DNA from: Elusimicrobia bacterium RBG_16_66_12
GTDB taxonomy: Bacteria > Elusimicrobiota > Elusimicrobia > UBA1565 > UBA9628
DNA: 42,443 nt
Direction of reading: 5' to 3'
Assembly (NCBI GenBank): GCA_001800005.1
Contig: MGUL01000041.1
Coordinates: 31,855 to 74,297, forward strand
The number at the start of each line of letters is the position of its first letter. The stretch's first letter is position 1. Below the pieces are notes generated by a model. That model was given only the letters and a program-made list of their open reading frames with translations. It did no database searches and was not told where the DNA came from. Below, piece after piece: positions 18,141 through 42,393 of the stretch. A program made the translations under genes and the position numbers.

Positions 18141-20903
18141 CTACGGTACGGGTGACAGCACGATTTTCAGACGCTGTCCGAACGCATCAGGCAGAAGCAC
18201 TCCGCCGGCGTCCCCACTGCCGTCATCTTCCCATTCTGGCCGGTGTCCTAGGATGAACTTAAACCAACGCTCCCGATCCCCGACCCGAAGATGCATTCGC
18301 TCATCAATGGTGCCCGGCAGATACCGACGGTAAATCTTCAAGCACGCGTTCGGGTCGCGTACAAGCTCACGCTCCACTTTACTGCCAAGACGGTCGACTC
18401 GTCCTACCCGCTGTTCTAGACGGGCAGGATTCCACGCCAAGTCGTAGTGCACGACTCGCGCGCATTCGCGGTGAAGATCTATCCCCTCCTGCATCACTTC
18501 AGAAGCAACCAAGACATAGGGCCGAAAAGGGGTATTGAAGCCGTAGCGATATCTACGACGATTGGCAATACTCTCGTCGCCGCTGGCGCGAGCCACCATA
18601 TTCTCAGTACGCAGGCCGCGGGCGAAGCTCCGGATCTCCTCCGCGGGAAGGGTGATAATCTCTTCCAAAAACCGCCGGACCATCCGTTGGACGCGCGGGC
18701 CTTGGGCGGCGGCGAGAAGCGCACGCTCGGCCCGGACACCTCCGCGGCCTCCAAGAGACAACGTGGCCGAGCCGAGAATTTCCGGCACAAATAAGGCCCT
18801 GCCGACCGCATCGAGCAATTCTTCGCGGAGAACCAGATCTTGGATTCCTTCAAGTTGCGCGCGATAAGGTTCCCAGACACTTCTGTGTTTAAGGACTCGA
18901 TCCAGCCACGCTACCAGCTGTTCCTTGGTGCAATAGTGGCTTCGAAGAATCGCGCGTTCATGGTCAGGGGTGAGAATTCGGACGATACGTCGCTTTAGGT
19001 CAACTGGATGGACAACCTCCTTTTTCCAAAACTGGTGGAGTGACGCAATGGTTGCCGAAGAGCCAGTTTGTACCTGACGCCCGAATACAATGCACTCGCA
19101 CAGCGACGCAAGGCTATCCCAGTCAGGTCCATGCGCTTTCCCCTTCAAGCCAACTCGGTAGCCGTTGCCGAATCGCGCGAGTTCTCGGATGACTTCTGGA
19201 TAAATGTCGTTCGCTGATGGACGAGCGCGAAGGTATGCGCAATAGTTCTCCTTGAATAACAGACGCAGCGTGTCGCGTTCGGTCGTAACTCTTTTGCGCA
19301 GGTTACGGAGGAGATGATCGACTTCAGCGCGCGATAGAGGCAGAAGCCCTGCATAAACCTGCTTTTCAAGCGCCAAGTTCAGCGTGGCCTGCAGCGCCTT
19401 GACCGACTCTAGGCGGGCAGTGAAGATCAGCACCTTTTCACCCTTGCGGAACTCATCGCTGACGCTCTGAGAGAGTGCCAAGAGTTTGGGATGTTGACTG
19501 CCATTTCGGCTGAGGAGCTTTCGCATGAGGCCGCGATAGAACGCTACCGAACCGGCGCCTCCTGCACGCCCACGCATCACGGCGCTTTCCCGAAAGGCCT
19601 CCCAAGAGCTCGTCAACGAGAGGCTTTGTACCGCCGAGAATGTCGGTTTCTGGCGTTGATACTCATACAGGAGTCTGTGCAAGACTGCGAAGGGGACCCG
19701 CTCCTTGCTACTGATTGGAATTGGAGTCTGGATTGTCTCCCGGTAGGCGCGCTCCTTAACATTCCGAACAACCCATTTACCTAGGATCGCCTGGAGATCC
19801 CGATGGCCCTGGCAAAGGGTCTCAAATGCGTGCTTGAAGGCAGGGTTGACATTGATTCCCCGAAGCTCCTTTTTGCTCACGACCGACTTATCCGTGGGGG
19901 TTAACGTTTGCCACGCATCTTCAAAGGTGCGGACGAGATCCTGATAGCGTTGGGCGCATGCAGTCACTGTCTCGGCTTCACGATCCATCGATCTGGCCGA
20001 ATGTTCAGTCGAATGTCGGAAGAGCCGCAACATGCTTTGAAGTTCATCAGGGCCCAACTGAAACGGCGTGGCCGTGAGGAAAAGCATGTCACGGAAACAT
20101 CGGTGGAAGACCGACTCCAAAGCTGCGTACTGCTTGCTGTCCGGGTTCTTTAGGTGGTGAGCTTCATCGACCACGACCAAACTAAATCGACGCAGCCGAG
20201 TGCGTATCAGCAACCAGCGGATATGGTCAGCTAGCGGTTTGAGCTTATAAGCCGCCACAGAATCGGGATCAAAAGGCCAGAGGTCCAATTCCTTCAGAGT
20301 TTTGCGGATGGTCTTCTTGAGACTCGGAACCCGCTCATCCAGCCAGGAGAGACGCTTTCGCGCCCATGGTGCGCCCCCCCTACCTCCCAGACGTCGCCAT
20401 AATATTATGCGCGCAGGGCGGTTAAGCCTCGCCGCTCGTGACACGAGGTGATAGACAAGCTCGAGAGTCCGCTTCCGTTCACCTGCCCGGCGTGAAGCAA
20501 GAAAGATGGAGGCTGGGAGGATCCAGACCCGGCTTTTAACCCGCGTCTGCAATAGCTTTTCTAGGGGCCAGTCATAGAGATCTTGGGTCAGAGACATCCG
20601 TCTTCCAACCCCAGGGCTAACGTTCTCCCGCCTAAACCGTTCCAAGTCGCGCGTCCACTTTTCAGCCAAGTCCGCTGAAGGAGTCAGCACGAGTACCCGA
20701 CTCCCAGGATAGCGCACCAGATAATCGGCGATTGCTCCTAGCGCCACATACGTCTTGCCCATCCCTACTTCATCGCTTAGAACCACTCCCGGTTGGACCC
20801 GCAGGCGATCCAGGACTCCCCGCATGGTGGCCGCTTGACGACGGGCGTCGGCAGTGGATACCCGGCGCTGCACTCCTTGGAAGTCGACGCGGACGCGGGC
20901 CAT
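18141..20903 (-). CDS. SNF2-family helicase (second copy, 920 aa)
   Basis: Motif I is VVLSDEVGMGKTYVALGAI. Motif II is LVVVDEAHHLKN. Motif III is MLFLTATPFQLGPDEL. Motifs V/VI are VLVASEVMQEGIDLH...VVHYDLAWNPARLEQRVGRVDRLGS. The ATG at 20903-20901 overlaps the PLD gene stop by 1 nt. Confidence 0.9.
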   Translation of the reverse strand: MARVRVDFQGVQRRVSTADARRQAATMRGVLDRLRVQPGVVLSDEVGMGKTYVALGAIADYLVRYPGSRVLVLTPSADLAEKWTRDLERFRRENVSPGVGRRMSLTQDLYDWPLEKLLQTRVKSRVWILPASIFLASRRAGERKRTLELVYHLVSRAARLNRPARIILWRRLGGRGGAPWARKRLSWLDERVPSLKKTIRKTLKELDLWPFDPDSVAAYKLKPLADHIRWLLIRTRLRRFSLVVVDEAHHLKNPDSKQYAALESVFHRCFRDMLFLTATPFQLGPDELQSMLRLFRHSTEHSARSMDREAETVTACAQRYQDLVRTFEDAWQTLTPTDKSVVSKKELRGINVNPAFKHAFETLCQGHRDLQAILGKWVVRNVKERAYRETIQTPIPISSKERVPFAVLHRLLYEYQRQKPTFSAVQSLSLTSSWEAFRESAVMRGRAGGAGSVAFYRGLMRKLLSRNGSQHPKLLALSQSVSDEFRKGEKVLIFTARLESVKALQATLNLALEKQVYAGLLPLSRAEVDHLLRNLRKRVTTERDTLRLLFKENYCAYLRARPSANDIYPEVIRELARFGNGYRVGLKGKAHGPDWDSLASLCECIVFGRQVQTGSSATIASLHQFWKKEVVHPVDLKRRIVRILTPDHERAILRSHYCTKEQLVAWLDRVLKHRSVWEPYRAQLEGIQDLVLREELLDAVGRALFVPEILGSATLSLGGRGGVRAERALLAAAQGPRVQRMVRRFLEEIITLPAEEIRSFARGLRTENMVARASGDESIANRRRYRYGFNTPFRPYVLVASEVMQEGIDLHRECARVVHYDLAWNPARLEQRVGRVDRLGSKVERELVRDPNACLKIYRRYLPGTIDERMHLRVGDRERWFKFILGHRPEWEDDGSGDAGGVLLPDAFGQRLKIVLSPVP

Positions 20904-22789
20904 CAGCGCATCCAGGCCTTGCGGCCGCGGCTCAGGTAATGGGAGCGGATATTGGACATGCCTCGACTATTGCGGCTGATAAACTGATGCAACCGAGCAG
21001 CCTGCCGGCGGGCCTGGGTGAGCGCCTCCGGCTTGCCGCACCACCGAACAGATGCCACCATGGCACCTAGCTCGAGAAGAGCGAAGCGTCTGAACCCATC
21101 ATCAAGACTGCGGTCGGTGCGGATGCCCTCCGCCAGTCTTGTCACCCCGAGGTCACCAAGGAATACCGCCGTCGCTTCCCCAGTTGAGCCCAAGCGGGCT
21201 GATAGGCGCTTGCGCATCCCCTCTAAGCCTCGAGTAAGTCGCGAGAGTTGCTCCATGTAAGGCACGTCGTCCACGGAAGCATTGCCCATGCGCGAATTTC
21301 TCTTTGCGATCACCCGATCACGGAAACGGGCAAGATTCGCCGCCCCACTAGCGAGATAATCGAGGATATCGGTGTAATGAAGATCGGCCATGCCCGGCAC
21401 TAGAGGCAAGAGTTCTTTGTTCATTACAGCTATTGGAAACTTCGCCTTATTGCTTCCCTCTTGAACGACAAGCCATGCGGTCTTCCCGAGTTTAAATCTG
21501 ATTCGACGTTCATGCGGGAATTGATCCCGGCCACCGTTCGGCCTAGCGATCACCTTGTCCTCATACGCGACTGACCACTTCGCTATCGGCTTGCGGCTTT
21601 CGTACACAATGGTCATTGAACCGGTGAGCGCGTCGTATTCCGCCCCCTGGAGAAACGGTGTCCACAATCTGCCGGTCTGCTCGTCGTCGTTGGGAACAGA
21701 CGACACTTTTGTCCAATCTACGACTCCCTCTGTCGGCGGCAGATGTTTCCGAATGTCGCCCCACGAACCAGTCAAGGCGACAGCGACTTCGGAGTTTGCC
21801 CCAAGCAACCCTGGGCCCGTGAAGTTTGGAGAACCCAGCATAGCCCAGCCCCTACTGCCTGCCCGTGCGACAAAGAGCTTGGCATGAAGCACGCGCGATC
21901 CGGCACGTTCCCCACTTTCCGTGCTTCCTGTGGTCAGGCTTTGATGAATCACGGGACAGGTCGGCTTGGCGAAAGCCAACGCTTCGGCCGACATGCCGGA
22001 CCTATAAACGGGCCCTGTATCGCCGGCATCCTTTCGTACGTACACATGGACAGCTCGAGCTTTCAGGTGGGTCAACGGTTTCGAGCGAGCCCCCCCATCG
22101 AAGAAGGGTGAGACGACGTGTAATTCGTCGAGATCGTCCCGGCCATCCATCAGACGCTTCCATTGATGCAAAATGGGTTGGGCCGACTCGCTATGCAACA
22201 GATTTGTATCTCCTCCAGTAGAGGGCATACGTCGCCGCAGCTCCGTTAAGGCGGCGCTAAGCACGCGCGAGGTAGGCCACTCTTTTCGGCCGATCCTGTT
22301 CAGGTACTCCAGGCTGGAACGTGCCGTCGCGCCGAACTTGTCGCCTCTCTCCGTTGAGGCCACCCAAGCAAGTTCGAGGTTTCTGTGGAAGCCGGCCTCG
22401 GTTAAATTAGCGGACGAGACGATCAAACGAGTGGCTCGATCAAACGCTAACAGGTGCAGCTTGGGGTGGAACGCCGGAAACCTATGGGAAAAGAGCAGGT
22501 CGTAGGAGTCGACGCCCTTCTCGCTCTCGAAGTTAAACCTGTGCTTGTCAGCGAGTACAGCCACCTTTGCCTGACGCAGTCGGCTACGTAACGTCAGAAG
22601 AAACGGGGAGTCATCGCTCTTTTTCCCCGCAGTTCGGTCTGGAGCATCGGCGTCCAGACCAACCAGCATCGGGAGCACGGTCTGCTCTAGATATGAAAGA
22701 TCGAGGTCAAAGGTCGTCAGGACCGCAGCACGAAGCGATTGGCCATCCGGCGGCGTGAAAGCCTCAAGCATCGGCATAACTCGCGTCAT
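20903..22789 (-). CDS. Phospholipase D-family nuclease with two HKD motifs plus a ~280-aa C-terminal region of unknown function
   Basis: HKD-1 is FPAFHPKLHLLAFDRATRLIVSSANLTEAG. HKD-2 is SRVLHAKLFVARAGSRGWAMLGSPNFTGPG. There is an ATGA overlap with the upstream gene (22786-22789). Confidence 0.85.
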   Translation of the reverse strand: MTRVMPMLEAFTPPDGQSLRAAVLTTFDLDLSYLEQTVLPMLVGLDADAPDRTAGKKSDDSPFLLTLRSRLRQAKVAVLADKHRFNFESEKGVDSYDLLFSHRFPAFHPKLHLLAFDRATRLIVSSANLTEAGFHRNLELAWVASTERGDKFGATARSSLEYLNRIGRKEWPTSRVLSAALTELRRRMPSTGGDTNLLHSESAQPILHQWKRLMDGRDDLDELHVVSPFFDGGARSKPLTHLKARAVHVYVRKDAGDTGPVYRSGMSAEALAFAKPTCPVIHQSLTTGSTESGERAGSRVLHAKLFVARAGSRGWAMLGSPNFTGPGLLGANSEVAVALTGSWGDIRKHLPPTEGVVDWTKVSSVPNDDEQTGRLWTPFLQGAEYDALTGSMTIVYESRKPIAKWSVAYEDKVIARPNGGRDQFPHERRIRFKLGKTAWLVVQEGSNKAKFPIAVMNKELLPLVPGMADLHYTDILDYLASGAANLARFRDRVIAKRNSRMGNASVDDVPYMEQLSRLTRGLEGMRKRLSARLGSTGEATAVFLGDLGVTRLAEGIRTDRSLDDGFRRFALLELGAMVASVRWCGKPEALTQARRQAARLHQFISRNSRGMSNIRSHYLSRGRKAWMR

Positions 22790-24096: not shown

Positions 24097-24106
24097 GCGT
24101 AGCCCT

Positions 24107-33436: not shown

Positions 33437-36400
33437 CGGACCTTCCGGAAAATATCCGGCCGCTGGGCGATCCTAGCCCCTAGATTCTCTCGATAATGCC
33501 AGACCCACACTTCGCCCCCTTGAGCGATAATTGCTTGGCGCTGGCTCTCGTCGCGGGCCTGGACCTCGGGAGTGTCATGTGGCGATCCATCACAGAAGAC
33601 CCAAAATCGCGGCTCGTAATAGAAGTCAGGCTGGCAGTAAATCCCTTCGATTCTTTTTTGCGCCGCATCAGGGAGGCGAAAGCCGCCGTCGTAGAGGTGC
33701 TTGATGAATGCGCGCTCGGTCGACGAGTTGGGGTCGAGATGCCGCAACATCGCTTGATGCTGCTCTTCGTAATCCCGAAACCCGGTATTCGTCTGAATCT
33801 CGATGTCGCACAGCGCAAGTTTATCCAGCGCCTCGCGAATTGCAAAGCGATCGATAACGTGATGGTCGCGCTGGTTATAGTAACTGAGCAGATCGTCGTA
33901 GGATGCCGGCGCCAGGTACTTCGGGTCGTCATAGCGGCAGATCTTCTTCGCCGCTTCGATTACTTTGCGGAATGTTTGAACGTTTTCAACGAATTGCGAA
34001 AGAATCCCGAGGCTTCCTTCGGAAGCTTCGTAGAGAAGAATGTTAGGCGCCTCGGCATCACCAACGGAAACCACTCCGATCTCACTCGGTTCCACCTGAA
34101 AGACCGTCTCTATCGCCCTCTTGAGCGCGTGCTGGAGCGTAATGACCCCCGCCCACGCCAACCCAAGCGGCTGTATAGGCTCGATATACATCGCATCAGC
34201 TACATTCGAGGTGAAGAGTTTGACCAGCCGGAACTCTTCACGCATTGTGTCATCGGGTTCGGGCATCGAACTCTGCCAATTACCGGAGGTCAGGCCTATC
34301 GGGAAACCCTCCACTTTTTGCGTGCGCCACTTCATGTTCACGTGGATGAGCCGCGCCGCGGGTATATAACGCAGGTTTAGAAGAGCGGTCCCGCTCGATC
34401 GGGCGATCGCCTTGCGGACCCGATCTAATGGCCCGCCATCAACCGCGAAATAAGTCTGGATATCAAAGCCTCGGGAGACACGCTCCTCCTCCTCACATGA
34501 AATCCGATCGACCTCCTCTGCGCGAGACTCGGACATTTCCAGCAGATCATGAAGATGCTCTTTGTTCGCATTGTCGGCGAGATTCACTCCGGAGAAGGGA
34601 CAAATCTCCAAGTCCTTCTGTTCACCGGTCAGGTAGTATCCCGCCTTGGTGCTGATCTTCGCTTCAGTCAGCGAGGACTCTGCATCCTGCAACACCATCT
34701 GATCCACCTTATACTTCCGGCCGTTGTGATAAATGACGTTAAGTGGACCGAATTCACGCAGTGCGATCGCGCGGGGGCGAGAGATGAACTCACCAGATGA
34801 GCCGCCGGTCGGCACGAAAATGCGAATCGGTAGCCGCGTGAAGTTATACCCAGGAAGGAATCCCTCGGAGGCGAGGTAACGATACGGGTAAAATTCTGAC
34901 AGGGTGGCAGATCCGGAGGTGTCGTTTCGCAGGAGATTGAGCTGACGATTGGCCTGATCCTGGTGGCGCTTGTACTTCTTGTATTCGTCACTGCTCACGC
35001 TGAGTCGTCCACTGTCGATCGGCTGAGTGGCCCGCGTAAGCAGCGACCGCGCGGAGCGATATAGGCGACGCCAGCGTTTCATCGCATCATCGAGCTTATC
35101 GTCGAGTTTGCTCAGGTTCTGATCAAGCCAGGCATCTGAATACCACGAATTCGCTCGCGTATCGAGATCCGTCTCAAAGTCTTTGATTACGCGCCGAAAT
35201 GTTGCCTTGATTGCGGTATAAGCCGCTGGAGAAATCTTCAGCCCTTCACGAACACCCGGCGCGAGAGGCATGTCGGCATTGTCATCGCTGACAAAGCGCA
35301 TCAGCGACGGCCGGTCGCCGCCTTCTGAGTCCAAACCAGGCAACCCGATCTCACTGATTGCCAGCGCATTCAGGTGCGTAACGAGAAGCTCTTGATTGCA
35401 CAAGTCCAGTCTGGGCGCCTGTACGGCGCCGGCGACCAGCTCCGCTTGCTGCTGGAAGTAGTGGCGATCATGAGCAGAGTAGCTCGAGCAATAGGTGAAC
35501 ACTAGAGCCCCTTGGCCGCTTCTTCCTGCGCGTCCCGAGCGCTGCGTATAATTCGCAGCGTTGGGCGGAGCGTTTCGCATATGGACCACACTCAAGCCGC
35601 CGATATCGATACCAAGTTCCATCGTTGGCGAGCAGAAAAGCGCGCTAATCGATCCACTGCGGATACGCGCCTCGTCGAGTTGCGTCTTCGCCTCGTCGAC
35701 ATACCAATCCGCGCGGAATCGGTCTTCCCGCTCTTGTCGGGCTTCCGTATTGAGTTGGCCCGTGTGATCCTCTGCCCGGAGCCTTTTGCCCTGCGAGACA
35801 TCCCGGCGATACATATCGCGAAAGAAAACATTCGGCTTCGGTTTCTGATCTTTGTAGGAACGGCGTTTGATGACATCCGGTTTTACCGCTTCACCATCAC
35901 CGAGCTTCCATTGGATCTTCTCGATCCGAAGACGGAATACCGGAACCTCGACATTCTTTTCGCTTCGCGCGCTCTGCTGAGATAAATAGTCAGCTTCTTT
36001 GAGCTTACCCATCAGCTTCATGATGAAGTCGCGGTAAAGGTCGCCTTTGAGATCGAGCTCGATCCCCTTATAGTTAGCGAAGTGCTTTATGTACTTCCCG
36101 AGAGCGCTGGCCCGTCCCATGCTTTTTGAGGCCAGACGCGCGGACTTGTGGAGCGGCTCAAGGCGGATGACACAAGGCTCACGAAGATCTTCTTTCGGAT
36201 CGAGCGTCCACGGTGCTTTAAGCTGCTCGCGGAAGTGCTTTTCAAATTCCTTCAAGCGCACGGCCGTCAGGAAGTTCTCGCTGTGGAGCGCATACTCCAA
36301 GCGGAAGAAGTCGAGGATCGTGGAGAGGAAATCCTTCCTATCCGCGTGAGACAGGTTGGAAACCAAGGGCATATCCGCCCAGAATTTATCCTCGGCGACG

Positions 36401-38604
36401 ATCTCGCCAAGATTTACGTAGTCAATATTCAATAGGCCGCACTGTTCTAAGTTCGGGAGCACAATACGCCAACTGCGCCGAAGATCAGAAACCGCCCGAT
36501 AAAAGAGATATGCCTGGAACGTCTGCTCGTAATCTCGACGAACCGTCGCGAGCGCAGGCTCCTGATCCCGGTTGCCAAAGTCGAGAAACGGCAGGGCGAG
36601 CGCCTTAAATACGGCCTCGCCGATATTGGCATAGGTCAATGTCTCGTTGGGTGCGCTTGCAAGCGCCTTGCGTATGCCCGCGCGAAGCTGAACAACTTGC
36701 ACGAAATCGTTGAAGTGTCCGGCCTGAAGCGCGGCGTCCTGTCGGTTATCTGTGAAGCTTAGGAGCTTCTGGTCCCGGGTTTGATACCCGGCGTCGTTCA
36801 GCTGATTTAGAATCGAGAAGGCCGTGATCGTGGTCGAGGTACTACGACCTTCGCTGCCGAGCTTCGTGAGCTTGGTCCCCTCCCGCATCTTGGCGTCGAA
36901 GAACACGCCCCCCGTAGGATCGAAAAGGAGCGGCGCCTCCATGAACCAGCCCCAGAACTTCATTGGTTTAGAATCTGAGCAGTTTCCAAATTCATCGAAG
37001 TGGATTTTTTTCGGGAAAAACGCAGCCTTTTTCGAATCGGGGACTGGGCCGCTCTTCGTTTGCCTAAACCACGCCTCGGGCAAATAATCGGAATCGACAG
37101 CGGGGTCCCACACCTCCTCTCCAACGATCAAATACCCGTCCGTCGTCTCTCCCTCCTCATCCTCGCTACTCTCACGGAACTCACGCGGTTCCAGTTGATC
37201 ACCGGCGCGAGACACGCAGATGAAAGGGAACCCAGTCGCGCGACTAAAGACATTCGGGAAGATCGGCTTTTTATTCTTGTCGTCTTGCTTGTAAATTCCC
37301 GGCTCGAGCGTGATGAAGCGGTTCTCATCCTGATCAAGCGTCGTGTAGACAGCACCCGTCTGGGCAATGAACTGGTGCAGTCGGAAAGGCAGCAGCGTGT
37401 AGCGAGATCCGCTGTTCTGAACTTCCTTGTTGATCGAACTAATCCACAGCAGCATGCTCTCTAGGCATTTTCGGCAGGCGTCCTCAGTTAGACCGGAGTC
37501 CTCAACGAGACGGGCGATTACAGTGCTGATGCGATGTGGCCGCTGACGCACCAACTTGCCTTCTCGTTCTTCGAGGGCTATCCGATTCTCGAGCCATATC
37601 GCGACGGGGTGCACTTTAAGTTTTGCCGCGTCGTATTTGGGGTTTAGGCCCGCGTTGATCGCTGCGGCGAGCGCCGAGCGTGTCGGGAGAGCGCCCGAAG
37701 GCTCAAGTGAGCGACTGAGCGTCTCTGTTATGACCTGATCGGGGGTGAATGGGCGTCCGAACATCGTTGTGGCAACCCGCGCGACCTGTTCTCGCTGAGA
37801 GACGAGGCTGCCAACAGAGACCATGGTCGCGGATGTGCCAATGCACGCGACCGGCTGCTTGCATTGCGCTCGAATTCTTCGGATGAGCATTGCAACGTCC
37901 GCGCCCTGGCGACCGCGGTAAGTATGCAGCTCATCAAATACTAGATAACGGAGATTTTCATAAATTGCATCACGGATCGGACGCTCCTGCACTCGCGTGA
38001 GCAGGAGTTCCAACATCATATAGTTCGTCAGAAGAATCTGGGGCGGATTCTCCCGCATTGCTATGCGGCGCTCTTCCTTTTCCTGGCCTGTATACTGGCC
38101 GAAGCTGATCGGGAAAGCCTTGCCCGTGCTCTTCTCGTAATTCTCTTTATATGTCTTGAATTCGTTGGTCTGAGAATTGATCAGGGCGTTCATTGGATAG
38201 ACAACAACCGCCGTACCACCCTTAGAACCTGGTTCAGTAAGAAGGCGATGGAAAATCGAAGCGATGTAGGTAAGCGATTTACCGGAGCCTGTTCCAGACG
38301 TCACAACGAAATCCTGGCCTGCAGTGCCGAGCTTGATCGCCTCCAGCTGGTGGCGATATAGCGAATAGCCTTTGAAAATGTCAGCCGTAGCGCCGTGCAA
38401 CACGCCGCCGGCGGCAACGGTACCAATGCCGCCAACCGTCTCGTAGGACGGATTGAATTGGAGCAGCGGCTGGGGCCAGAGTTTTCCTTCATCAAGCGCA
38501 GCCTCAACCGCTTCACGGATTGCCGGATCGGCGATGTTTATGAAGCTGCGGATGTAGCTGGCGTAGTCGCCAACAATCTTGGAATGAGTTTCGAAGACGT
38601 TCAT
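33433..38604 (-). CDS. 1723-aa SF2 (Lhr/YprA-type DEAD/DEAH) helicase fused to DUF1998 and a C-terminal Vsr/DUF559-like PD-(D/E)xK domain (DrmA+DrmB-like or DruE-like)
   Basis: Walker A is FVVTSGTGSGKSLTYI. Motif II is LVFDELHTYRGRQGADVAMLIRRI. Motif III is GTSATM. Motifs V/VI are SPTMELGIDIGGL...YTQRSGRAGRSGQGALVFTY. The DUF1998-type region is YRYLASEGFLPGYNFTRLP...ILLYEASEGSLGILSQF. The last ~98 aa (33436-33729) read STERAFIKHL...YCQPDFYYEPRFWVFCDGSPHD...RDESQRQAIIAQGGEVWVW. Confidence 0.9.
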   Translation of the reverse strand: MNVFETHSKIVGDYASYIRSFINIADPAIREAVEAALDEGKLWPQPLLQFNPSYETVGGIGTVAAGGVLHGATADIFKGYSLYRHQLEAIKLGTAGQDFVVTSGTGSGKSLTYIASIFHRLLTEPGSKGGTAVVVYPMNALINSQTNEFKTYKENYEKSTGKAFPISFGQYTGQEKEERRIAMRENPPQILLTNYMMLELLLTRVQERPIRDAIYENLRYLVFDELHTYRGRQGADVAMLIRRIRAQCKQPVACIGTSATMVSVGSLVSQREQVARVATTMFGRPFTPDQVITETLSRSLEPSGALPTRSALAAAINAGLNPKYDAAKLKVHPVAIWLENRIALEEREGKLVRQRPHRISTVIARLVEDSGLTEDACRKCLESMLLWISSINKEVQNSGSRYTLLPFRLHQFIAQTGAVYTTLDQDENRFITLEPGIYKQDDKNKKPIFPNVFSRATGFPFICVSRAGDQLEPREFRESSEDEEGETTDGYLIVGEEVWDPAVDSDYLPEAWFRQTKSGPVPDSKKAAFFPKKIHFDEFGNCSDSKPMKFWGWFMEAPLLFDPTGGVFFDAKMREGTKLTKLGSEGRSTSTTITAFSILNQLNDAGYQTRDQKLLSFTDNRQDAALQAGHFNDFVQVVQLRAGIRKALASAPNETLTYANIGEAVFKALALPFLDFGNRDQEPALATVRRDYEQTFQAYLFYRAVSDLRRSWRIVLPNLEQCGLLNIDYVNLGEIVAEDKFWADMPLVSNLSHADRKDFLSTILDFFRLEYALHSENFLTAVRLKEFEKHFREQLKAPWTLDPKEDLREPCVIRLEPLHKSARLASKSMGRASALGKYIKHFANYKGIELDLKGDLYRDFIMKLMGKLKEADYLSQQSARSEKNVEVPVFRLRIEKIQWKLGDGEAVKPDVIKRRSYKDQKPKPNVFFRDMYRRDVSQGKRLRAEDHTGQLNTEARQEREDRFRADWYVDEAKTQLDEARIRSGSISALFCSPTMELGIDIGGLSVVHMRNAPPNAANYTQRSGRAGRSGQGALVFTYCSSYSAHDRHYFQQQAELVAGAVQAPRLDLCNQELLVTHLNALAISEIGLPGLDSEGGDRPSLMRFVSDDNADMPLAPGVREGLKISPAAYTAIKATFRRVIKDFETDLDTRANSWYSDAWLDQNLSKLDDKLDDAMKRWRRLYRSARSLLTRATQPIDSGRLSVSSDEYKKYKRHQDQANRQLNLLRNDTSGSATLSEFYPYRYLASEGFLPGYNFTRLPIRIFVPTGGSSGEFISRPRAIALREFGPLNVIYHNGRKYKVDQMVLQDAESSLTEAKISTKAGYYLTGEQKDLEICPFSGVNLADNANKEHLHDLLEMSESRAEEVDRISCEEEERVSRGFDIQTYFAVDGGPLDRVRKAIARSSGTALLNLRYIPAARLIHVNMKWRTQKVEGFPIGLTSGNWQSSMPEPDDTMREEFRLVKLFTSNVADAMYIEPIQPLGLAWAGVITLQHALKRAIETVFQVEPSEIGVVSVGDAEAPNILLYEASEGSLGILSQFVENVQTFRKVIEAAKKICRYDDPKYLAPASYDDLLSYYNQRDHHVIDRFAIREALDKLALCDIEIQTNTGFRDYEEQHQAMLRHLDPNSSTERAFIKHLYDGGFRLPDAAQKRIEGIYCQPDFYYEPRFWVFCDGSPHDTPEVQARDESQRQAIIAQGGEVWVWHYRENLGARIAQRPDIFRKVR

Positions 38605-40581
38605 TTAAGCTAGCCACTCCGGCGGCACAAGCTTCTTTCCGCTGCGCCACTCTTCTACAAGATGAAGGTCAGGAATTTGGCCCCAGACATCCGAACCTGC
38701 ATGGTCGAGCACAATAATTTGCATCCGGTCACCGCTGTCCCGCACGACCGCGGACATGAGGCTAAACACTTTCCGAACTGCCTCGAGATCTTCGTCCTTA
38801 AGCTTTGGATCCTCGTCCTCTTGTGACGCTTTACCCGCAAGCCGTACAGGGAAGTAGACTTGGCTCGGCTGGTCGTAGACGACAAAGTTTGGCACAGGGC
38901 TGAAGGGAAGCCCGAGGAAAAACTGATGTAGCCCCAAGGACACGGCAACGTGATAGGAGAGCCAGTTTGAACCGCTCCCGATCTCCCATAGGAAGTCTTC
39001 TCTATCGATGCCTTTCACCTTGATCGAAAGGTCCGGGATTGAAAGGGAAATCGGATCGTTGGGCCGTTCAGCATCCAATTTTGGGATTAACTTTCCCGCA
39101 TTGAGGCTCACCGCATCCAGGGCGCGCTTTGTCTTTGCGCGGATCGCGCCCTCCGAAATGGCGAGTTCGAGGGCGGCCACCTGTTCCTCGAGCGACTTGA
39201 CCTCGTTATCAAGATTGCTGTCGTGCCCAATCTGGGAATAGAGTTGGAGCGATTGCTCAAGGTTTCCGATGAAGCGTGAGACTCGAAGGGAATCGTAGTA
39301 GGTCTGCTTTGCTTGAGAGGATCGCTTTTCAACAGCGTCTCGCCTAATCTTTATTCCATCAAGCTGCTCCGTAGTCTGCCGGATCTCAGTCTTCACTCGC
39401 TCCAACTCGCGATCAAAGGCAGCAGGCACGTTGCCGGCCTGCCCCGCGGACTCCTCAACGGTGCGAAGCGCTGTGCAGAGTGTCGCTAACCGCTCTTTCG
39501 CTTCTGTGATAGCATGCCCACATACAGGGCAGTCATTGCCGCCGCTGTGCATTGTGGCGAGCCAGTCCGAGATTTTGAGGCGATCTCGTTGAAGATGCAG
39601 GGCTCCCTCATATTCCTTGCTCGTCTTCCTGAGAGTCTCCATCTCGCCAAGTCGTCGCCTTAGCCCCGAAAGACGCATGGAGACCTGGGATTCCTCGGCC
39701 TGAAGGCCCACGAACTCTTGAACTGCCTCTTCAACCGTCTCTGATGTGACCTTATTGCCTGATCCGGCAGGACGCTCGACTACCTTTGAAAGCAAATCAA
39801 CAAGCTGGGCTTGGCTAGCATTCTGAGGTATTGGTTGATCGACAAGTCCTAATTCCCGTGCTTCTGTGGCCTTGGCCCGAATCTCAGCCATCCATCGTTC
39901 AGAAACCTGGCGCGCCGTCGCCAACTCGCCCTTCTTCCGGCGAAGCTCACGCCTTAATTTCTCAAGCTCATGCTGTTTAGCGAGGAGCTGCGGGGTAACG
40001 GCATTCAGGACATACGGGAAGATAGTTTGAAGTTTCTGCGAGTGCTCAGGCCGATCAGCCTTGTAGAACAAGATGTCGGGGTTCGCGACGACGTTTTGCG
40101 GCTGGAACAGAAACGGGCCGAGGTCCCTGAAACTTGGTCGAGACAGAAAGCTCGCGTCAGAGTCGTTGGGATCGAAATCTAGATTGGTCAAGCCTGCGAG
40201 TTCATCAAGCATTCGCTTTACAGCTCGAACGTTGGAGTTGCTTTGCGTGATCTGCGCGGGGATATCGACCTTGGGCGCCTCAACAACGAACATATCGCCC
40301 GTCGATTTCTGTGAACCAGGCTCTCTACGCGCGAATAACTTCTCGCCGGCCGCAGTCTGAACAACGACACCAAACCATTCACATGCGTTGCGGATGGTTA
40401 ATACCGGAATCGAGCACTTGTCGGATCCAAGACAGTAGTCGATTATTGGAATGATGGCCGATTTGCCCGTACGCGAGGAGCCGCTTATCACGTTTACGCC
40501 GTTGGTCTTAAACGGGAGTCGTCTCGGCAAAATTCCGGACTTCTTCGGCCACAGGACTATCTCTTTGATTTGGAATTGCAT
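38605..40581 (-). CDS. ABC-3C system ABC ATPase (DUF3732; SMC/Rad50-like with coiled coil and CxxC hook)
   Basis: Walker A is VISGSSRTGKSAIIPIIDYCLGS. The coiled coil spans ~aa 200-480 with CPVCGH at its midpoint (aa 351-356). The DUF3732 hallmark is FVVYDQPSQVYFP. The Walker B/D-loop is MQIIVLDHAG. The TAA stop (38605-38607) directly abuts the ATG of the helicase gene. Confidence 0.85.
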   Translation of the reverse strand: MQFQIKEIVLWPKKSGILPRRLPFKTNGVNVISGSSRTGKSAIIPIIDYCLGSDKCSIPVLTIRNACEWFGVVVQTAAGEKLFARREPGSQKSTGDMFVVEAPKVDIPAQITQSNSNVRAVKRMLDELAGLTNLDFDPNDSDASFLSRPSFRDLGPFLFQPQNVVANPDILFYKADRPEHSQKLQTIFPYVLNAVTPQLLAKQHELEKLRRELRRKKGELATARQVSERWMAEIRAKATEARELGLVDQPIPQNASQAQLVDLLSKVVERPAGSGNKVTSETVEEAVQEFVGLQAEESQVSMRLSGLRRRLGEMETLRKTSKEYEGALHLQRDRLKISDWLATMHSGGNDCPVCGHAITEAKERLATLCTALRTVEESAGQAGNVPAAFDRELERVKTEIRQTTEQLDGIKIRRDAVEKRSSQAKQTYYDSLRVSRFIGNLEQSLQLYSQIGHDSNLDNEVKSLEEQVAALELAISEGAIRAKTKRALDAVSLNAGKLIPKLDAERPNDPISLSIPDLSIKVKGIDREDFLWEIGSGSNWLSYHVAVSLGLHQFFLGLPFSPVPNFVVYDQPSQVYFPVRLAGKASQEDEDPKLKDEDLEAVRKVFSLMSAVVRDSGDRMQIIVLDHAGSDVWGQIPDLHLVEEWRSGKKLVPPEWLA

Positions 40582-41087
40582 TAGAAGCTTACCTTGAGGT
40601 TGACCGAGATTTCATGAAGGGACAACTGCCCACACCATCCGCCAAGCTTCTCAACTGCGCGGCTCAGTGGGCGGATGGATTCTGGAATACCAGCCTTGGG
40701 GGCGGTCACGGACGAGGCAAGTACGTTTCCTTTAGCCGCATCCAGCAGGAGCAACTTCGTAGAAAATGCGAGTCGGAGCGCTTCAAGTGAAAGCGGGCGC
40801 ATGGTCGTTGCTCGTCCTTGAATTGCCAGGATCAAATCGTTCTTGGATACGCTCGATTCGCTGAATTTGCCGATGAACGCGCGAAGCCCCGAGGCTAGTC
40901 GAGTGGAATGAAGTTGCTCCATCGTCTCAACGTGAAACGCGATTGGGAGAACTAAAAATAGCAGTGGTAACGGCGGCGGGCTATGAGTGGGGTTTGCTTC
41001 GGTATAGCCGACAACGAACCGCCATAGAAGTAGGGCGCCGAGAGCAGGGTTCTGTACGTTGTTCGCTTCGACGCTGAGGACGCTCAT
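40581..41087 (-). CDS. ABC-3C middle component-like protein (168 aa)
   Basis: The size, the position between effector and ABC ATPase, and the N-terminus NPALGALLLWRFVVGY...LPLLFLVLPIAFH match my recollection of ABC three-component middle components. Both junctions overlap (ATGA at 41084-41087; TAATG at 40579-40583). Confidence 0.65.
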   Translation of the reverse strand: MSVLSVEANNVQNPALGALLLWRFVVGYTEANPTHSPPPLPLLFLVLPIAFHVETMEQLHSTRLASGLRAFIGKFSESSVSKNDLILAIQGRATTMRPLSLEALRLAFSTKLLLLDAAKGNVLASSVTAPKAGIPESIRPLSRAVEKLGGWCGQLSLHEISVNLKVSF

Positions 41088-42343
41088 GGCGCCTTGGTTT
41101 CCTTCAATGGGGCTGCCCGAAGTTGATTTACATAATCAGGATGCCACCCGACTTTCTCGGCGTCCGCCAGAGAATGGAAGCTCCCGGGAGTGAAGTGGCC
41201 CGGCACTGCCATCCCTTGGAGCTGGGCCTGATGCAAAGCGCAGTCCTGATAAAGCAACTTCCCGTGCTCTACTGCGGGCCGATTCTTGTGCTCGATCGCG
41301 CACTTTCGCCGGATATTGTCCCAAGTGCGCTGAAGGTTATCCGCGAATTCGTCGAAACTCTCGGGCTGGACGTCGCCTTTCTCACTCCATTGCGTCCGAT
41401 CTGCGGCTGCGCGAAGAAAGTCGTTTACTGCGCGCAACCGCTCATCGTAATCGGCGTCAATGAGATCGAGTTGGCGGACATAGGTTCGCGTCTCCAAGTC
41501 TCCGGCGATTGCTTCCTTTGAGGGAGTAGGAGCAAAGCTCGTGAGGATGGTTCGGCGGTCGTGTTTTCGCACGAACGACATGATTTCTTTCCGAATCTCA
41601 TCGACAGCTAGGATTGCTGGTCGTTTCTGCTCAATCAACTGGTCGATTTTTTCCTTGACGAGGCCTAGAGCGAATTTCAGGGTGGCATCCCTTAGCTCGG
41701 TCGGCACGAGAGCCATAGCGGGAAGCGCGCGCAGATCATCGTGCGCGCTCCCGGACCCATGTTTGAGGGAAAAGTTGCAGATAATCGCGGCGACCAACCC
41801 TTCGTCTGCACCGAAGACTCGTTCCAACTGTGGAGCAAGGGCTGCAGAGACGCCGGGCTTCTTTGTGTATCCGGGGGAATCGCCCCACAGTATCACCCTC
41901 GCCCTTGTCAGGGCCGCCTTGGCGTCCTGTGCCGTTGCCGCCGCAGAAAACGACTGAGCAATGTCGCCGCTTAGCGGCTTAGAGACAAATAATTCGAAAA
42001 ACGTCGTCGTCGGATCAAGAGTCGCCGATTTTACCGCCTCGATCCAGTTTCCGAAGGTTTTCCACAACTCCGGCGAGCGATCGGCAACTGGATTCCCTAC
42101 CAAGGCGCTCTTATCCTGCTCGGCTATAGTAGTCCCACTTGGGGAACTGACTCCAACGTCATCGAAGACCTCAACGCTGACGGAGGATCCGGGCGGTGCT
42201 CCCAAAACGCGAGCCAAGCAACGAGTCGTCTGAAGGGAAAAGCCCAAATACTGCCCAGGCGCAACCGAGGATTGAGCGGCAGCGGCCCCAGGGGCCCCAG
42301 TCACCTTCGGTCGAACAGTTTGTTTGGAAATCGGAACGCTCAT
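41084..42343 (-). CDS. ABC-3C effector component: N-terminal Cap4/DUF4297-like PD-(D/E)xK dsDNA nuclease plus helical C-terminal domain
   Basis: The nuclease-type pattern is GQYLGFSLQTTRCLARVL...SVSVEVFDDVGV...TIAEQDKSA (Gf.yQ ... E..DD ... Q.K). It is the first gene of the operon. The remaining ~280 aa are helical, as in ABC-3C C-terminal domains. Confidence 0.65.
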   Translation of the reverse strand: MSVPISKQTVRPKVTGAPGAAAAQSSVAPGQYLGFSLQTTRCLARVLGAPPGSSVSVEVFDDVGVSSPSGTTIAEQDKSALVGNPVADRSPELWKTFGNWIEAVKSATLDPTTTFFELFVSKPLSGDIAQSFSAAATAQDAKAALTRARVILWGDSPGYTKKPGVSAALAPQLERVFGADEGLVAAIICNFSLKHGSGSAHDDLRALPAMALVPTELRDATLKFALGLVKEKIDQLIEQKRPAILAVDEIRKEIMSFVRKHDRRTILTSFAPTPSKEAIAGDLETRTYVRQLDLIDADYDERLRAVNDFLRAAADRTQWSEKGDVQPESFDEFADNLQRTWDNIRRKCAIEHKNRPAVEHGKLLYQDCALHQAQLQGMAVPGHFTPGSFHSLADAEKVGWHPDYVNQLRAAPLKETKAP

Positions 42344-42365
42344 AGAGTTGAAATAATTTCAGGAT

Positions 42366-42393
42366 ATTTTAGCATTCTCCACGGCTGACCCAA
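42366..42393 (-). promoter_or_regulatory. Candidate sigma-70-type promoter of the 11-gene operon
   Basis: The minus strand reads TTGGGT (42393-42388), a 16-nt spacer, then TAAAAT (42371-42366). The -10 ends 22 nt upstream of ATG 42343. No Shine-Dalgarno is evident before the first gene. Hexamer match only. Confidence 0.3.

What the first reader, a model, noticed from the sequence alone, without database searches (positions are those of the whole stretch)
18141..42343. Eleven defence-type genes fused into one gap-free, translationally coupled 24.2-kb operon
I read every junction directly from the sequence:
- ATGA at 41084-41087
- TAATG at 40579-40583
- TAA directly followed by ATG at 38602-38607
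- TTGA (TTG start) at 33433-33436
- GTGA (GTG start) at 30563-30566
- TGATG at 26440-26444
- TAATG at 25595-25599
- a single 10-nt gap at 24097-24106
- ATGA at 22786-22789
- TGATG at 20901-20905

The operon holds three helicases (two different SNF2 proteins and one Lhr/YprA-type with DUF1998) and one large adenine methyltransferase. It also holds an SMC-like ABC ATPase and at least five distinct predicted nuclease domains: Cap4-like, Vsr-like, DUF429, DUF2779 and two-HKD PLD.

Defence islands normally consist of separate operons with their own promoters. Here there is no intergenic room for them, which argues for co-expression and possibly functional integration into one composite, methylation-guided system.

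Hand-sampled lines give roughly 50-55 percent G+C here against roughly 62-70 percent in the 12-18 kb segment. That is consistent with horizontal acquisition. No integrase or att repeat is visible, and the right flank lies outside the window.
Basis: partly seen in the sequence, partly recalled or inferred. Interest (0 to 1): 0.9.

Follow-up and report, generated by a model that had tools for sequence, protein, structure and literature searches.

The report
Four defence systems packed into one operon
A 24-kb foreign island in a groundwater Elusimicrobia genome strings four separately known or catalogued anti-phage modules (Lamassu, ARMADA type I, a DUF429/DUF2779 nuclease pair, an Azaca-like PLD-helicase trio) end to end with no intergenic space, so it is an unusually compact defence island, not a new 11-gene machine.

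Summary

The interpretation as one composite system is not supported. The locus splits into four modules, each found elsewhere without the others:
- **g1-g3:** short Lamassu with a Cap4 nuclease. LmuA and LmuB match the solved complex 9HQU at 1e-98 and 7e-207.
- **g4-g6:** ARMADA type I. It occurs as a stand-alone cassette in about 70 of 80 genomes from more than 10 phyla. A 65%-identical plasmid homologue is listed as an ARMADA type I helicase by the paper that defined the family.
- **g7-g8:** an RNase H-like DUF429 protein and a Cas4-like/DUF2779 nuclease.
- **g9-g11:** an Azaca-like/PDC-M27 trio.

The full gene order occurs only in one Rifle groundwater population.

Tight stop-start joints to unrelated defence genes are common 3' of the ARMADA-I methylase (34 of 54 loci). 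The window's 11-gene run is still the longest seen; the next longest is 7. Co-transcription from one promoter is plausible but untested.

In passing, a 2'-dG-II riboswitch lies just downstream of the island.

The parts
42366..42393 (-). Promoter-like site upstream of g1: -35 TTGGGT, 16-nt spacer, extended -10 TGCTAAAAT, 22 nt before the ATG
   Evidence: Read directly from the sequence. The consensus scan did not list it because the -35 matches only 3 of 6 positions. It is a prediction only.
41084..42343 (-). g1, LmuA: Lamassu effector with an N-terminal Cap4-type nuclease and a C-terminal CTD7 domain (419 aa)
   Evidence: Pfam CTD7 6.5e-19. PADLOC LmuA 1.4e-49. PDB 9HQU_C 1.3e-98 and Vc-Cap4 LmuA 9NXX 2e-40, both full length.
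40581..41087 (-). g2, LmuC: ABC-3C middle component MC3 (168 aa)
   Evidence: Pfam MC3 2.4e-30. PADLOC LmuC 4.6e-8.
38605..40581 (-). g3, LmuB: SMC-like ABC ATPase with DUF3732 (658 aa), Walker A GSSRTGKS at residue 34
   Evidence: Pfam DUF3732 3e-52. PADLOC LmuB 5e-128. PDB 9HQU_A 6.6e-207. Motif.
33433..38604 (-). g4: ARMADA type I YprA-like helicase (1723 aa) with GTGSGKS and DELH motifs, an MZB/DUF1998 domain and a probable Vsr-type C-terminal nuclease
   Evidence: Pfam DEAD, Helicase_C and MZB. PADLOC DruE 1e-77, far better than DrmA 5e-13. PDB DruE-like 9TU7 8e-41 and YprA 6ZNP 2e-20. It is 64.9% identical over its full length to the Caballeronia SBC1 plasmid helicase, whose record CP049160.1 is listed as 'ARMADA Type I helicase' in the supplement of 10.1101/2025.09.15.676423. 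The C-terminal motif is PDFYYEPRFWVFCDGSPHD, with D157, D169, G170 and H173 invariant in 31 homologues.
30563..33436 (-). g5: BrxHII/RapA-like Snf2 helicase of ARMADA (957 aa, TTG start)
   Evidence: Pfam SNF2-rel_dom and Helicase_C. PADLOC DpdE model 7e-191, DrmD 2e-85, BrxHII 3e-45. NCBIfam DrmD 307 bits, below the 610-bit cutoff, and RapA 3e-32. Thousands of homologues, the top 120 at 76-100% identity and 928-979 aa.
26442..30566 (-). g6: PglX/DrmMI-like N6-adenine DNA methyltransferase of ARMADA (1374 aa, GTG start), with DPACGSGHF and NPPW motifs
   Evidence: Pfam Eco57I 3e-16 and N6_Mtase. PADLOC DrmMI 2e-74 and PglX 1e-12. Motifs. The N-terminal 771 aa are about 50% identical across loci and the C-terminal half is variable.
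25597..26442 (-). g7: DUF429, an RNase H-like (RuvC/YqgF clade) predicted nuclease (281 aa); a PDC-S44 candidate
   Evidence: Pfam DUF429 3.8e-14. PADLOC PDC-S44 5.5e-27. Fold assignment from PMC3985635.
24107..25597 (-). g8: Cas4-like PD-(D/E)xK nuclease with a Cys cluster, fused to DUF2779, a predicted 3'-5' exonuclease of the RNase H-like fold (496 aa)
   Evidence: Pfam DUF2779 6e-39. PADLOC Cas4 4.6e-8. Motifs DLVEVK and CSSPYECSFQEHC. Fold assignment from PMC3985635.
22786..24096 (-). g9: all-alpha protein of unknown function (436 aa), first gene of the Azaca-like trio
   Evidence: No Pfam, PADLOC or NCBIfam hit. AF2 model with pLDDT 87.6 has no PDB fold match. It is always followed by PLD and Snf2 genes in L007-L011 and L092.
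20903..22789 (-). g10: two-HxK PLD-family nuclease (628 aa), ZacB/PDC-M27B-like
   Evidence: Pfam PLDc_2 6.7e-8. PADLOC ZacB 1e-25 and PDC-M27B 1.5e-10. HPK at residue 108 and HAK at residue 302, each followed by an (S/G)SxN motif.
18141..20903 (-). g11: Snf2-family helicase (920 aa), ZacC/PDC-M27C-like, with DEVGMGKT and DEAH motifs
   Evidence: Pfam SNF2-rel_dom and Helicase_C. PADLOC PDC-M27C 3e-52 and ZacC 3.4e-32. Motifs.
17903..18001 (-). Boundary element downstream of the island: a 2'-dG-II riboswitch aptamer (18001-17931) whose P1 3' strand overlaps an 11-bp terminator hairpin (17937-17909) followed by a T run. It belongs to the host sigma-54 regulator operon but is also the only strong terminator after g11.
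   Evidence: Rfam RF03165, 63.9 bits against a gathering score of 60, E 4e-14, full model. Terminator from the scan.

Best explanation
The 24.2-kb block is a horizontally acquired defence island in an Elusimicrobia genome (RBG_16_66_12, Rifle groundwater). It was built by joining four independently occurring modules head to tail in one orientation. It is most likely read as one long polycistronic message from a promoter upstream of g1.

The modules, and how each is thought to work on its own:
1. **Short Lamassu, Cap4 type (LmuA-LmuC-LmuB).** By analogy with the solved Vibrio system, LmuB and LmuC sense DNA ends or phage replication intermediates. LmuA is then released, forms a tetramer and degrades DNA, aborting the infection.
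2. **ARMADA type I.** It consists of a YprA-like helicase-nuclease, a RapA/BrxHII-like Snf2 ATPase and a PglX-like N6-adenine methylase. The methylase presumably marks host DNA, and the two motors with the C-terminal nuclease attack unmarked DNA directly.
3. **DUF429 plus Cas4-like/DUF2779.** Two predicted nucleases with no tested role.
4. **An Azaca-like/PDC-M27 trio.** It consists of an alpha-helical protein, a two-HxK PLD nuclease and a Snf2 helicase, inferred to form a helicase-dependent DNA-cleaving complex as ZacABC does in vitro.

What is shown and what is inferred:
- Shown here: gene content, junctions, module boundaries, independence of the modules elsewhere, and foreign composition.
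- Inferred: a single transcript, translational coupling, each module's mechanism (taken from characterised relatives), and layered rather than integrated action.
For: - **Junctions and ORFs:**
- **Lamassu:**. The same subtype stands alone with the same -4/-1 joints on S. meliloti pMl1. Mechanism from PMC12663957.
- **ARMADA type I:**
  - The g4-g5-g6 order and -4 overlaps are conserved in about 70 of 80 loci across more than 10 phyla at 50-85% identity.
  - This matches the published gene order of YprA, then Snf2, then methylase.
  - A 65%-identical plasmid homologue is listed as an ARMADA Type I helicase.
- **Trio g9-g11:** conserved in L007-L011 with different neighbours. ZacABC biochemistry.
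- **g8 and g7:** g8-g9-g10 adjacency is kept at 72-83% identity in L092 without g7 or g6. A DUF2779 gene sits next to a DUF429 gene, in the reverse order, in L096.
- **Restricted distribution:** the full order occurs only in contigs that are 99.6-100% identical to the window.
- **Composition:** uniform GC3 of 0.58-0.65 across all modules against 0.79-0.87 in the host.
- **Transcription signals:** no strong internal terminator or promoter-like excess, one strong hairpin after g11, and an extended -10 site before g1.
- **Generality of tight joints:** 34 of 54 ARMADA-I loci have the next gene within 12 nt of the methylase stop. These neighbours include DRT1a, Dsr1-like SIR2, OloA-like and NERD-helicase genes.
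Against: - There are no expression data. Promoters inside coding sequence cannot be excluded, and the sigma-70 scan may not suit Elusimicrobia.
- g1 has no Shine-Dalgarno sequence, and its true start may lie 13 codons downstream.
- The 11-gene run is an outlier (the next longest is 7), and simple concatenation does not explain why.
- All four modules share the same GC3, so they have travelled together for some time. That is also what a co-adapted unit would show.
- ARMADA type I itself has never been tested experimentally; only type II has.
- The Vsr nuclease of g4 was not confirmed.
- g9 is not detectably ZacA (DUF6361).
Confidence: 0.72

Rival explanations
1. One reading: the eleven proteins form one functionally integrated, methylation-guided machine. 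The single methylase licenses all the nucleases, and the helicases and SMC-like ATPase cooperate physically.
For: - The joints are gap-free and there is only one methyltransferase.
- GC3 is uniform across modules.
- The 11-gene run is longer than in any of 80 related loci.
- ARMADA-I methylases of the long form are nearly always followed by an SMC/LmuB-like DUF2326 ATPase (19 loci). Some ARMADA-SMC partnership therefore exists in nature.
- Synergy between co-located ARMADA II and Druantia III has been shown experimentally (PMC13463889).
Against: - None of 80 ARMADA-I loci carries g1-g3 or g7-g11.
- The trio and Lamassu occur alone.
- Lamassu Vc-Cap4, ARMADA II and ZacABC each work alone when cloned or purified.
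- The window's g6 lacks the C-terminal extension that accompanies the SMC-like partner elsewhere.
- The order is confined to one population.
Confidence: 0.08
2. The island is modular as described, but it is transcribed as several units from promoters buried in the 3' ends of the preceding genes. The stop-start overlaps would then be a by-product of compaction or of recombination at gene ends, not of co-expression.
For: - In other genomes G4 is usually preceded by 100-900 nt of non-coding DNA or by a divergent gene, so the cassette normally has its own promoter.
- The g9 trio has its own upstream gap in L007 and L009.
- One weak promoter-like site lies inside g9 at 23749-23721.
Against: - Promoter-like sites are not enriched (5 found against 8.9 expected), and none sits just upstream of g4, g7 or g9 on the minus strand.
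- No terminator-like hairpin stronger than 7 bp lies inside the island.
- Shine-Dalgarno-like motifs lie inside the upstream genes at most joints, which fits coupled translation.
Confidence: 0.2

Closest known systems
ARMADA type I (disARM-related Antiviral Defense Array; Bell et al. 2025, bioRxiv 10.1101/2025.09.15.676423)
   Same: g4-g5-g6 has the published gene order: a YprA-like helicase first, then a BrxHII/RapA-like Snf2 helicase, then a PglX-like methylase. The helicase is closer to DruE than to DrmA. A 65%-identical homologue is listed as ARMADA type I by the authors.
   Different: - It is flanked without gaps by other defence modules.
- This clade lacks the multiple CxxC zinc motifs described for the family; g4 has only one, at residues 377-380.
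- The Vsr domain was not confirmed here.
- Type I has not been tested experimentally.
Short Lamassu, Cap4 type (V. cholerae DdmABC / Lamassu Vc-Cap4; PDB 9NXX, 9NY5, 9HQU)
   Same: It has the three genes LmuA (Cap4 N-terminal domain plus C-terminal domain), LmuC (MC3) and LmuB (DUF3732) in the same order, with full-length similarity to the solved complexes.
   Different: Here the LmuB stop codon is followed directly by the ARMADA helicase start codon. Characterised Lamassu operons stand alone.
Azaca (ZacABC) and PADLOC candidate PDC-M27
   Same: It has three genes in the same order: a small non-enzymatic protein, a PLD nuclease and a Snf2-type helicase. g10 matches ZacB at 1e-25, and g11 matches PDC-M27C at 3e-52 and ZacC at 3e-32.
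   Different: g9 shows no DUF6361, ZacA or PDC-M27A signal and has no known fold. In its closest relatives the trio is preceded by a DUF2779 nuclease.
[quoted passage not shown]
   Same: Unrelated defence genes sit co-directionally inside or against a methylation-based system. The PDC-S44 and PDC-M27 models come from that study's 'guilt by embedding' screen.
   Different: In the window the extra modules sit before the first and after the last ARMADA gene, not between ARMADA genes. The stack is larger, with four modules and eleven genes.
Class 1 DISARM (DrmD-DrmMI-DrmA-DrmB-DrmC)
   Same: It also has a Snf2 helicase, an N6-adenine methylase and a YprA-type helicase with DUF1998, and a PLD nuclease is present in the locus.
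   Different: - The helicase and DUF1998 are fused in one protein, whereas DISARM splits them into DrmA and DrmB.
- The gene order differs.
- The PLD gene belongs to a separate trio.
- NCBIfam DrmD and DrmC scores are far below their cutoffs.

Membership tests
ARMADA type I | Three-gene cassette in the order YprA-like helicase, BrxHII/RapA-like Snf2 helicase, PglX-like methyltransferase | tested here: met
   The order g4-g5-g6 with -4 overlaps is conserved in about 70 of 80 loci.
ARMADA type I | Helicase belongs to the ARMADA type I clade of the YprA family, nearer to Druantia DruE than to DISARM DrmA | tested here: met
   PADLOC DruE 1e-77 against DrmA 5e-13. PDB DruE-like 9TU7 8e-41. g4 is 64.9% identical over 100% of its length to the only YprA-like gene on Caballeronia SBC1 pSBC1_4. 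The authors' supplement lists that record (CP049160.1) as 'ARMADA Type I helicase'. I built no phylogenetic tree.
ARMADA type I | DUF1998/MZB module fused to the helicase | tested here: met
   Pfam MZB 30.7 bits against a cutoff of 24.2, at residues 1490-1556. The canonical CxxC pairs are absent; single cysteines at 1335, 1370 and 1556 are conserved.
ARMADA type I | Predicted active Vsr-type nuclease at the helicase C-terminus | tested here: inconclusive
   No Pfam hit. No PDB hit with a profile of 31 homologues. The single-sequence AF2 model was unusable at pLDDT 45. Only the invariant PDF...DG..H motif resembles Vsr/DUF559.
ARMADA type I | Anti-phage activity | not testable with these tools
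   Only type II has been tested.
Lamassu (short, Cap4) | SMC-like LmuB with a DUF3732 C-terminal domain | tested here: met
   Pfam 3e-52. PADLOC 5e-128. PDB 9HQU_A 7e-207. Walker A motif present.
Lamassu (short, Cap4) | LmuA with an N-terminal Cap4 nuclease and a C-terminal domain that couples to LmuB and LmuC | tested here: met
   Full-length match to Vc-Cap4 LmuA 9NXX at 2e-40 and to 9HQU_C at 1e-98. CTD7 at 6.5e-19. I did not map the catalytic lysine residue by residue.
Lamassu (short, Cap4) | LmuC middle component encoded between LmuA and LmuB | tested here: met
   Pfam MC3 2.4e-30. PADLOC LmuC.
Azaca (ZacABC) | ZacA with a DUF6361 domain | tested here: not met
   None of 16 g9 family members matched DUF6361 at E up to 5. 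No PADLOC ZacA hit. No known fold.
Azaca (ZacABC) | PLD nuclease ZacB followed by helicase ZacC | tested here: met
   ZacB 1e-25 and ZacC 3.4e-32. Two HxK motifs and helicase motifs I and II are present.
Class 1 DISARM | Separate DrmA helicase and DrmB DUF1998 proteins, plus a DrmC PLD with a four-helix bundle, in one cassette | tested here: not met
   The helicase and MZB are fused in g4. NCBIfam DrmD scores 307 against a cutoff of 610, and DrmC scores 32.5 against 133. The PLD gene travels with g9 and g11 elsewhere.
   The order is absent from 80 genome loci, from five g9-context loci (L007-L011) and from five loci found through g7 or g8 homologues (L092-L096). It is present only in near-identical contigs from one site.

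The most novel reading that the evidence does not exclude
ARMADA type I may act as a carrier operon. The end of its methylase gene (commonly) and the start of its helicase gene (rarely) would be recombination hot spots. Unrelated defence modules would be spliced in there with stop-start overlaps, so that they ride on the ARMADA promoter.

The window would be the extreme case, with four modules in one message. The layers might then talk to each other. For example, Lamassu might sense the DNA ends that the ARMADA and Azaca-like nucleases create, and trigger abortive infection only when direct restriction fails.

A subtype with a long methylase plus a DUF2326 SMC-like ATPase, seen in 19 of the 80 loci and not mentioned in the text of the ARMADA paper, hints that pairing of ARMADA with SMC-like sensors is selected.
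Probability: 0.2. Interest if true: 0.6.

Novelty: new member of a known kind. Interest (0 to 1): 0.38.

Why it matters
The locus is a natural, very compact stack of four defence modules that probably share one promoter. That makes it a convenient construct for testing whether co-transcribed systems act additively, synergistically or as back-ups for each other. It includes an ARMADA type I system, a type that has not been tested experimentally. It also includes two uncharacterised candidates: the DUF429/DUF2779 pair, and an Azaca-like trio whose first protein has no known fold.

The wider comparison shows that the 3' end of ARMADA-I operons is a frequent docking site for other defence genes. 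That site could be mined for new systems in the same way as 'guilt by embedding'. The locus does not reveal a new principle of immunity.

Tried and rejected
- **DISARM class 1 and Dpd labels for g4-g6.** PADLOC and NCBIfam suggested them, but scores fall below the curated cutoffs and the architecture differs. I rejected both in favour of ARMADA type I.
- **Druantia III for g4.** Rejected because there is no DruH, and a Snf2 helicase and a methylase follow g4.
- **Vsr test for the g4 C-terminus.** Pfam at lenient E-values, a profile search of PDB sequences, hhalign and single-sequence AF2 all failed or were uninformative.
- **g9 function.** No family hit and no PDB fold match. The profile search found about 900 representative clusters, all unnamed.
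- **Viral contig scans for g8 and g3.** They found nothing.
- **att repeats.** There is no shared word of 10 nt or more between the two island ends, and no tRNA. Only 100 nt of right flank exists in any public contig.
- **LmuB (g3) against the DUF2326 ATPase found 3' of other ARMADA loci.** They show only weak coiled-coil similarity and are not the same protein.
- **Truncated methylase idea.** I considered that the window's methylase had lost a C-terminal piece. It ends 19 aa after the conserved LDPxPADPxxxHP motif, so the core is complete. It simply lacks the extension seen in L016 and L046.

Full report
**1. Checking the observation**

The window carries eleven minus-strand ORFs with exactly the coordinates given. 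Read on the minus strand, the ten junctions are ATGA, TAATG, TAAATG, TTGA, GTGA, TGATG, TAATG, a 10-nt gap, ATGA and TGATG.

The ORF list uses the longest possible ORFs, which favours overlaps, so I checked the two non-ATG starts.
- For g5 (TTG), one public gene caller chose an ATG 20 codons downstream, which would leave a 57-nt gap. However, homologues are consistently about 957 aa. tblastn matches begin at residue 1 directly at the stop of the upstream gene. The -4 overlap between G4 and G5 recurs in 42 related loci.
- For g6 (GTG), there is a GGAGGA Shine-Dalgarno sequence and no alternative start for 79 codons. The -4 overlap between G5 and G6 recurs in 29 loci.

- G+C is 0.51-0.60 inside the island against 0.64-0.71 in the 12-18 kb segment.
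- GC3 is 0.58-0.65 for all eleven genes against 0.79-0.87 for the neighbouring host genes.
- No tRNA gene is present, and the two island ends share no word of 10 nt or more.

**2. What the genes are**

*g1-g3, Lamassu.*
- g1 has the ABC-3C CTD7 domain, g2 is the MC3 middle component and g3 is a DUF3732 SMC-like ATPase. PADLOC calls them LmuA, LmuC and LmuB.
- g1 and g3 match the solved Lamassu complex 9HQU over their full lengths (1.3e-98 and 6.6e-207). They also match the Vibrio cholerae Vc-Cap4 complex (9NXX 2e-40; 9NY5 2e-143).
- In that system LmuA carries an N-terminal Cap4 nuclease. LmuB and LmuC bind DNA ends, and released LmuA forms a tetramer that degrades DNA (PMC12663957).

*g4-g6, ARMADA type I.*
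- g4 is a 1723-aa DEAD/Helicase_C protein with an MZB (DUF1998) domain. g5 is an Snf2 helicase. g6 is an Eco57I/N6_Mtase-type methylase with DPACGSGHF and NPPW motifs.
- PADLOC matches g4 to Druantia DruE (1e-77) far better than to DrmA (5e-13). It matches g5 to DpdE, DrmD and BrxHII models, and g6 to DrmMI and PglX.
- No NCBIfam DISARM, Dpd or BREX model reaches its curated cutoff.
- A 2025 preprint defines ARMADA type I as a YprA-like helicase first, then a BrxHII/RapA-like helicase, then a PglX-like methylase. Its helicase is closest to Druantia's and carries a C-terminal Vsr nuclease (10.1101/2025.09.15.676423).
- That is the g4-g5-g6 layout.
- More directly, g4 is 64.9% identical over its whole length to the only such gene on Caballeronia sp. 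SBC1 plasmid pSBC1_4. The preprint's supplementary table lists that record (CP049160.1) as 'ARMADA Type I helicase'.

*The Vsr domain of g4.* I could not confirm it.
- Pfam gave no hit, and a profile of 31 homologues found nothing in PDB sequences.
- A single-sequence AF2 model was unusable at pLDDT 45.
- What remains is an invariant motif, PDFYYEPRFWVFCDG.PHD ... RD..R..I...G..VWV. To my eye it resembles the Vsr/DUF559 signature.
- This clade also lacks the multiple CxxC zinc motifs described for the family.

*g7-g8, two predicted nucleases.*
- g7 is a DUF429 protein and matches PADLOC candidate PDC-S44 at 5.5e-27.
- g8 combines a Cas4-like PD-(D/E)xK N-terminus (DLVEVK, plus a cysteine cluster) with DUF2779.
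- Both DUFs were assigned to the RNase H-like superfamily. DUF429 falls in the RuvC/YqgF endonuclease clade and DUF2779 in the 3'-5' exonuclease clade (PMC3985635).

*g9-g11, an Azaca-like trio.*
- g10 is a PLD protein with two HxK motifs and matches ZacB at 1e-25.
- g11 is an Snf2 helicase and matches PDC-M27C at 3e-52 and ZacC at 3.4e-32.
- Zac proteins are the Azaca system. In vitro, all three of ZacA, ZacB and ZacC are needed for DNA cleavage, and ZacA carries DUF6361 (10.1101/2025.07.10.664194).
- g9 has no family hit at all, including DUF6361, across 16 family members.
- A confident AF2 model of g9 (pLDDT 87.6) is all-alpha and has no PDB fold match.
- A profile search finds about 900 representative clusters of proteins of about 440 aa. 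Of the ten clusters checked, the few members that carry a name are only called 'hypothetical protein'.

**3. Are the modules linked elsewhere?**

I used g5 to fetch 80 loci, each with 10 kb of flank, from one genome per species. I then mapped the eleven window proteins onto them and clustered all ORFs.
- G4-G5-G6 is a conserved cassette in about 70 loci. These come from Planctomycetota, Acidobacteriota, Nitrospirota, Verrucomicrobiota, several proteobacterial classes, Chloroflexota and others, at 50-85% identity.
- None has g1-g3 upstream. None has g7, g8 or g9-g11 downstream.
- G4 is usually preceded by 100-900 nt of non-coding DNA or by a divergent gene.

The other modules behave the same way.
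- *The trio:* the g9 family is rare by direct search, with 15 clusters. In three unrelated contexts g9 is followed by PLD and Snf2 genes with -4 overlaps but different neighbours.
- *g8:* homologues are mostly from Elusimicrobia.
  - In L092 (72-83% identity) the order g8, g9, g10 is kept, but a T5orf172 protein precedes g8 instead of g7 and g6.
  - In L093 a DUF2779 gene precedes a divergent PLD-helicase set.
  - In L094 it follows a WYL regulator and nothing else.
- *g7:* the one distant homologue found lies directly after a DUF2779 gene, which is the reverse order.
- *Lamassu:* the same subtype stands alone on S. meliloti pMl1 with the same -4 and -1 joints. It has a 450-nt gap upstream and more than 1.2 kb downstream.

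The complete 11-gene order is seen only in contigs that are 99.6-100% identical to the window, all from the same groundwater site.

**4. How unusual is the packing?**

- In 34 of 54 ARMADA-I loci the next gene lies on the same strand within 12 nt of the methylase stop.
- Those followers include recognised or candidate defence genes: DRT1a, a split Dsr1-like SIR2 protein, an OloA-like protein, a NERD-helicase, PDC-S44-type candidates such as PDC-S71, a PifA/QatA-like ATPase and an LmuB-like DUF2326 ATPase.
- A Schlafen/AlbA_2 ATPase sits next to the cassette in 16 loci, in most of them between G5 and G6.
[quoted passage not shown] There, 96.7% of embedded genes share the host system's orientation, and the PDC models were derived from that screen (10.1101/2024.01.29.577857).
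- The longest run of genes joined by 10 nt or less in the 80 loci is 7 (L027) and usually 3-4. The window has 11. The base rate of such joints is 0.45.
- A zero-gap joint on the 5' side of G4 is uncommon: about 6 of 59 loci have a same-strand gene within 14 nt.

**5. Transcription signals**

- Upstream of g1 there is a -35 TTGGGT, a 16-nt spacer and an extended -10 TGCTAAAAT, 22 nt before the ATG.
- Inside the island, promoter-like sites are not enriched (5 found against 8.9 expected). No terminator-like hairpin exceeds 7 bp.
- Most starts have a Shine-Dalgarno-like motif inside the preceding gene.
- The only strong hairpin lies after g11 at 17937-17909.

A single message is therefore plausible, but it is inferred.

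**6. Mechanism and verdict**

The best reading is a foreign island made by concatenating four autonomous modules that are probably co-transcribed. Each would act by the mechanism of its characterised relatives. Together they would give layered defence: direct restriction by ARMADA and the Azaca-like trio, and abortive infection by Lamassu.

Functional integration into one machine is not excluded by sequence alone, but it has no comparative support. Synergy between neighbouring systems is a realistic possibility, given the experimental precedent for ARMADA II with Druantia III.

The locus is a new and extreme member of a known kind, namely stacked or embedded defence systems. It contains an untested ARMADA type I system and two uncharacterised candidate modules.

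**7. Noticed in passing**

- *Riboswitch:* the hairpin after g11 is the expression platform of a 2'-dG-II riboswitch. The aptamer match (RF03165) covers 18001-17931 at 63.9 bits against a gathering score of 60, over the full model. It precedes a host operon for a sigma-54 regulator and a histidine kinase.
- *A second foreign patch:* a low-GC patch at 9.2-12 kb holds CoiA_N-like and DUF4238 genes.
- *Two methylase forms:* ARMADA-I methylases come in a short form (1238-1296 aa) and a long form (1393 aa or more). The long form has a C-terminal extension and is nearly always followed by a DUF2326 SMC-like ATPase. The preprint's main text does not mention this.

Noticed in passing
window 17931-18001 (minus strand), with hairpin 17909-17937: There is a full-length match to the 2'-dG-II purine riboswitch aptamer (RF03165, 63.9 bits against a gathering score of 60, E 4e-14). 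Its P1 3' strand overlaps the 5' arm of an 11-bp terminator hairpin followed by a T run, which suggests an ON switch. It lies 140 nt after the stop of the nuclease-rich island. It sits just upstream of a host operon encoding a sigma-54 response regulator, a Sigma54_DBD protein, a methyltransferase and a 7TMR-DISM histidine kinase. The papers read here name members of this class only from environmental sequences, apart from that.
   Followed up: partly
window 9249-11981 (plus strand): A second low-GC patch (G+C 0.50-0.52, GC3 about 0.54) sits inside high-GC host DNA. It carries a CoiA_N-like 291-aa protein, an unknown 213-aa protein and a DUF4238 297-aa protein. It is probably another small foreign, possibly defence-related, insert.
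   Followed up: partly
L012-L091 (for example L030:18779-20797, L106:24312-26282, L108:22318-24288): ARMADA type I methylases fall into a short form (1238-1296 aa, 32 loci) and a long form (1393 aa or more, about 22 loci). The long form has an extra C-terminal domain and is nearly always followed, at -56 to +39 nt, by a DUF2326 SMC/LmuB-like ATPase of about 670 aa (PADLOC PDC-M68B 4e-18). The main text of the ARMADA preprint does not mention an ABC or SMC partner.
   Followed up: partly
L015, L020, L029, L030, L032, L034, L037, L041, L042, L046, L054 (for example L041:12866-14425): A protein of about 520 aa with Schlafen AlbA_2, HATPase_c_4 and Fic-like C-terminal domains is inserted between the Snf2 and methylase genes of ARMADA type I in many loci. 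This is a recurrent embedded gene.
   Followed up: no
window 42344-42443 and loci L001-L006: Every public contig that carries g1 ends 59-98 nt upstream of it, and none extends beyond the window end. This points to a repeat or a strain-variable junction at the right border of the island.
   Followed up: partly
window 33433-38604 (g4) and its homologues in L012-L027: This helicase clade has almost no CxxC pairs (g4 has only CRKC at 377-380), although the ARMADA paper describes several CxxC zinc-binding modules. Single cysteines at about 1335, 1370 and 1556 are conserved instead.
   Followed up: partly
L027:4875-22853: This is the closest analogue of the window's packing: a 7-gene run joined by 7 nt or less. 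It consists of the ARMADA helicase, the Snf2 helicase, an embedded 200-aa gene, the methylase, a SIR2 protein and a 940-aa protein that together match Dsr1, and a 550-aa protein.
   Followed up: partly
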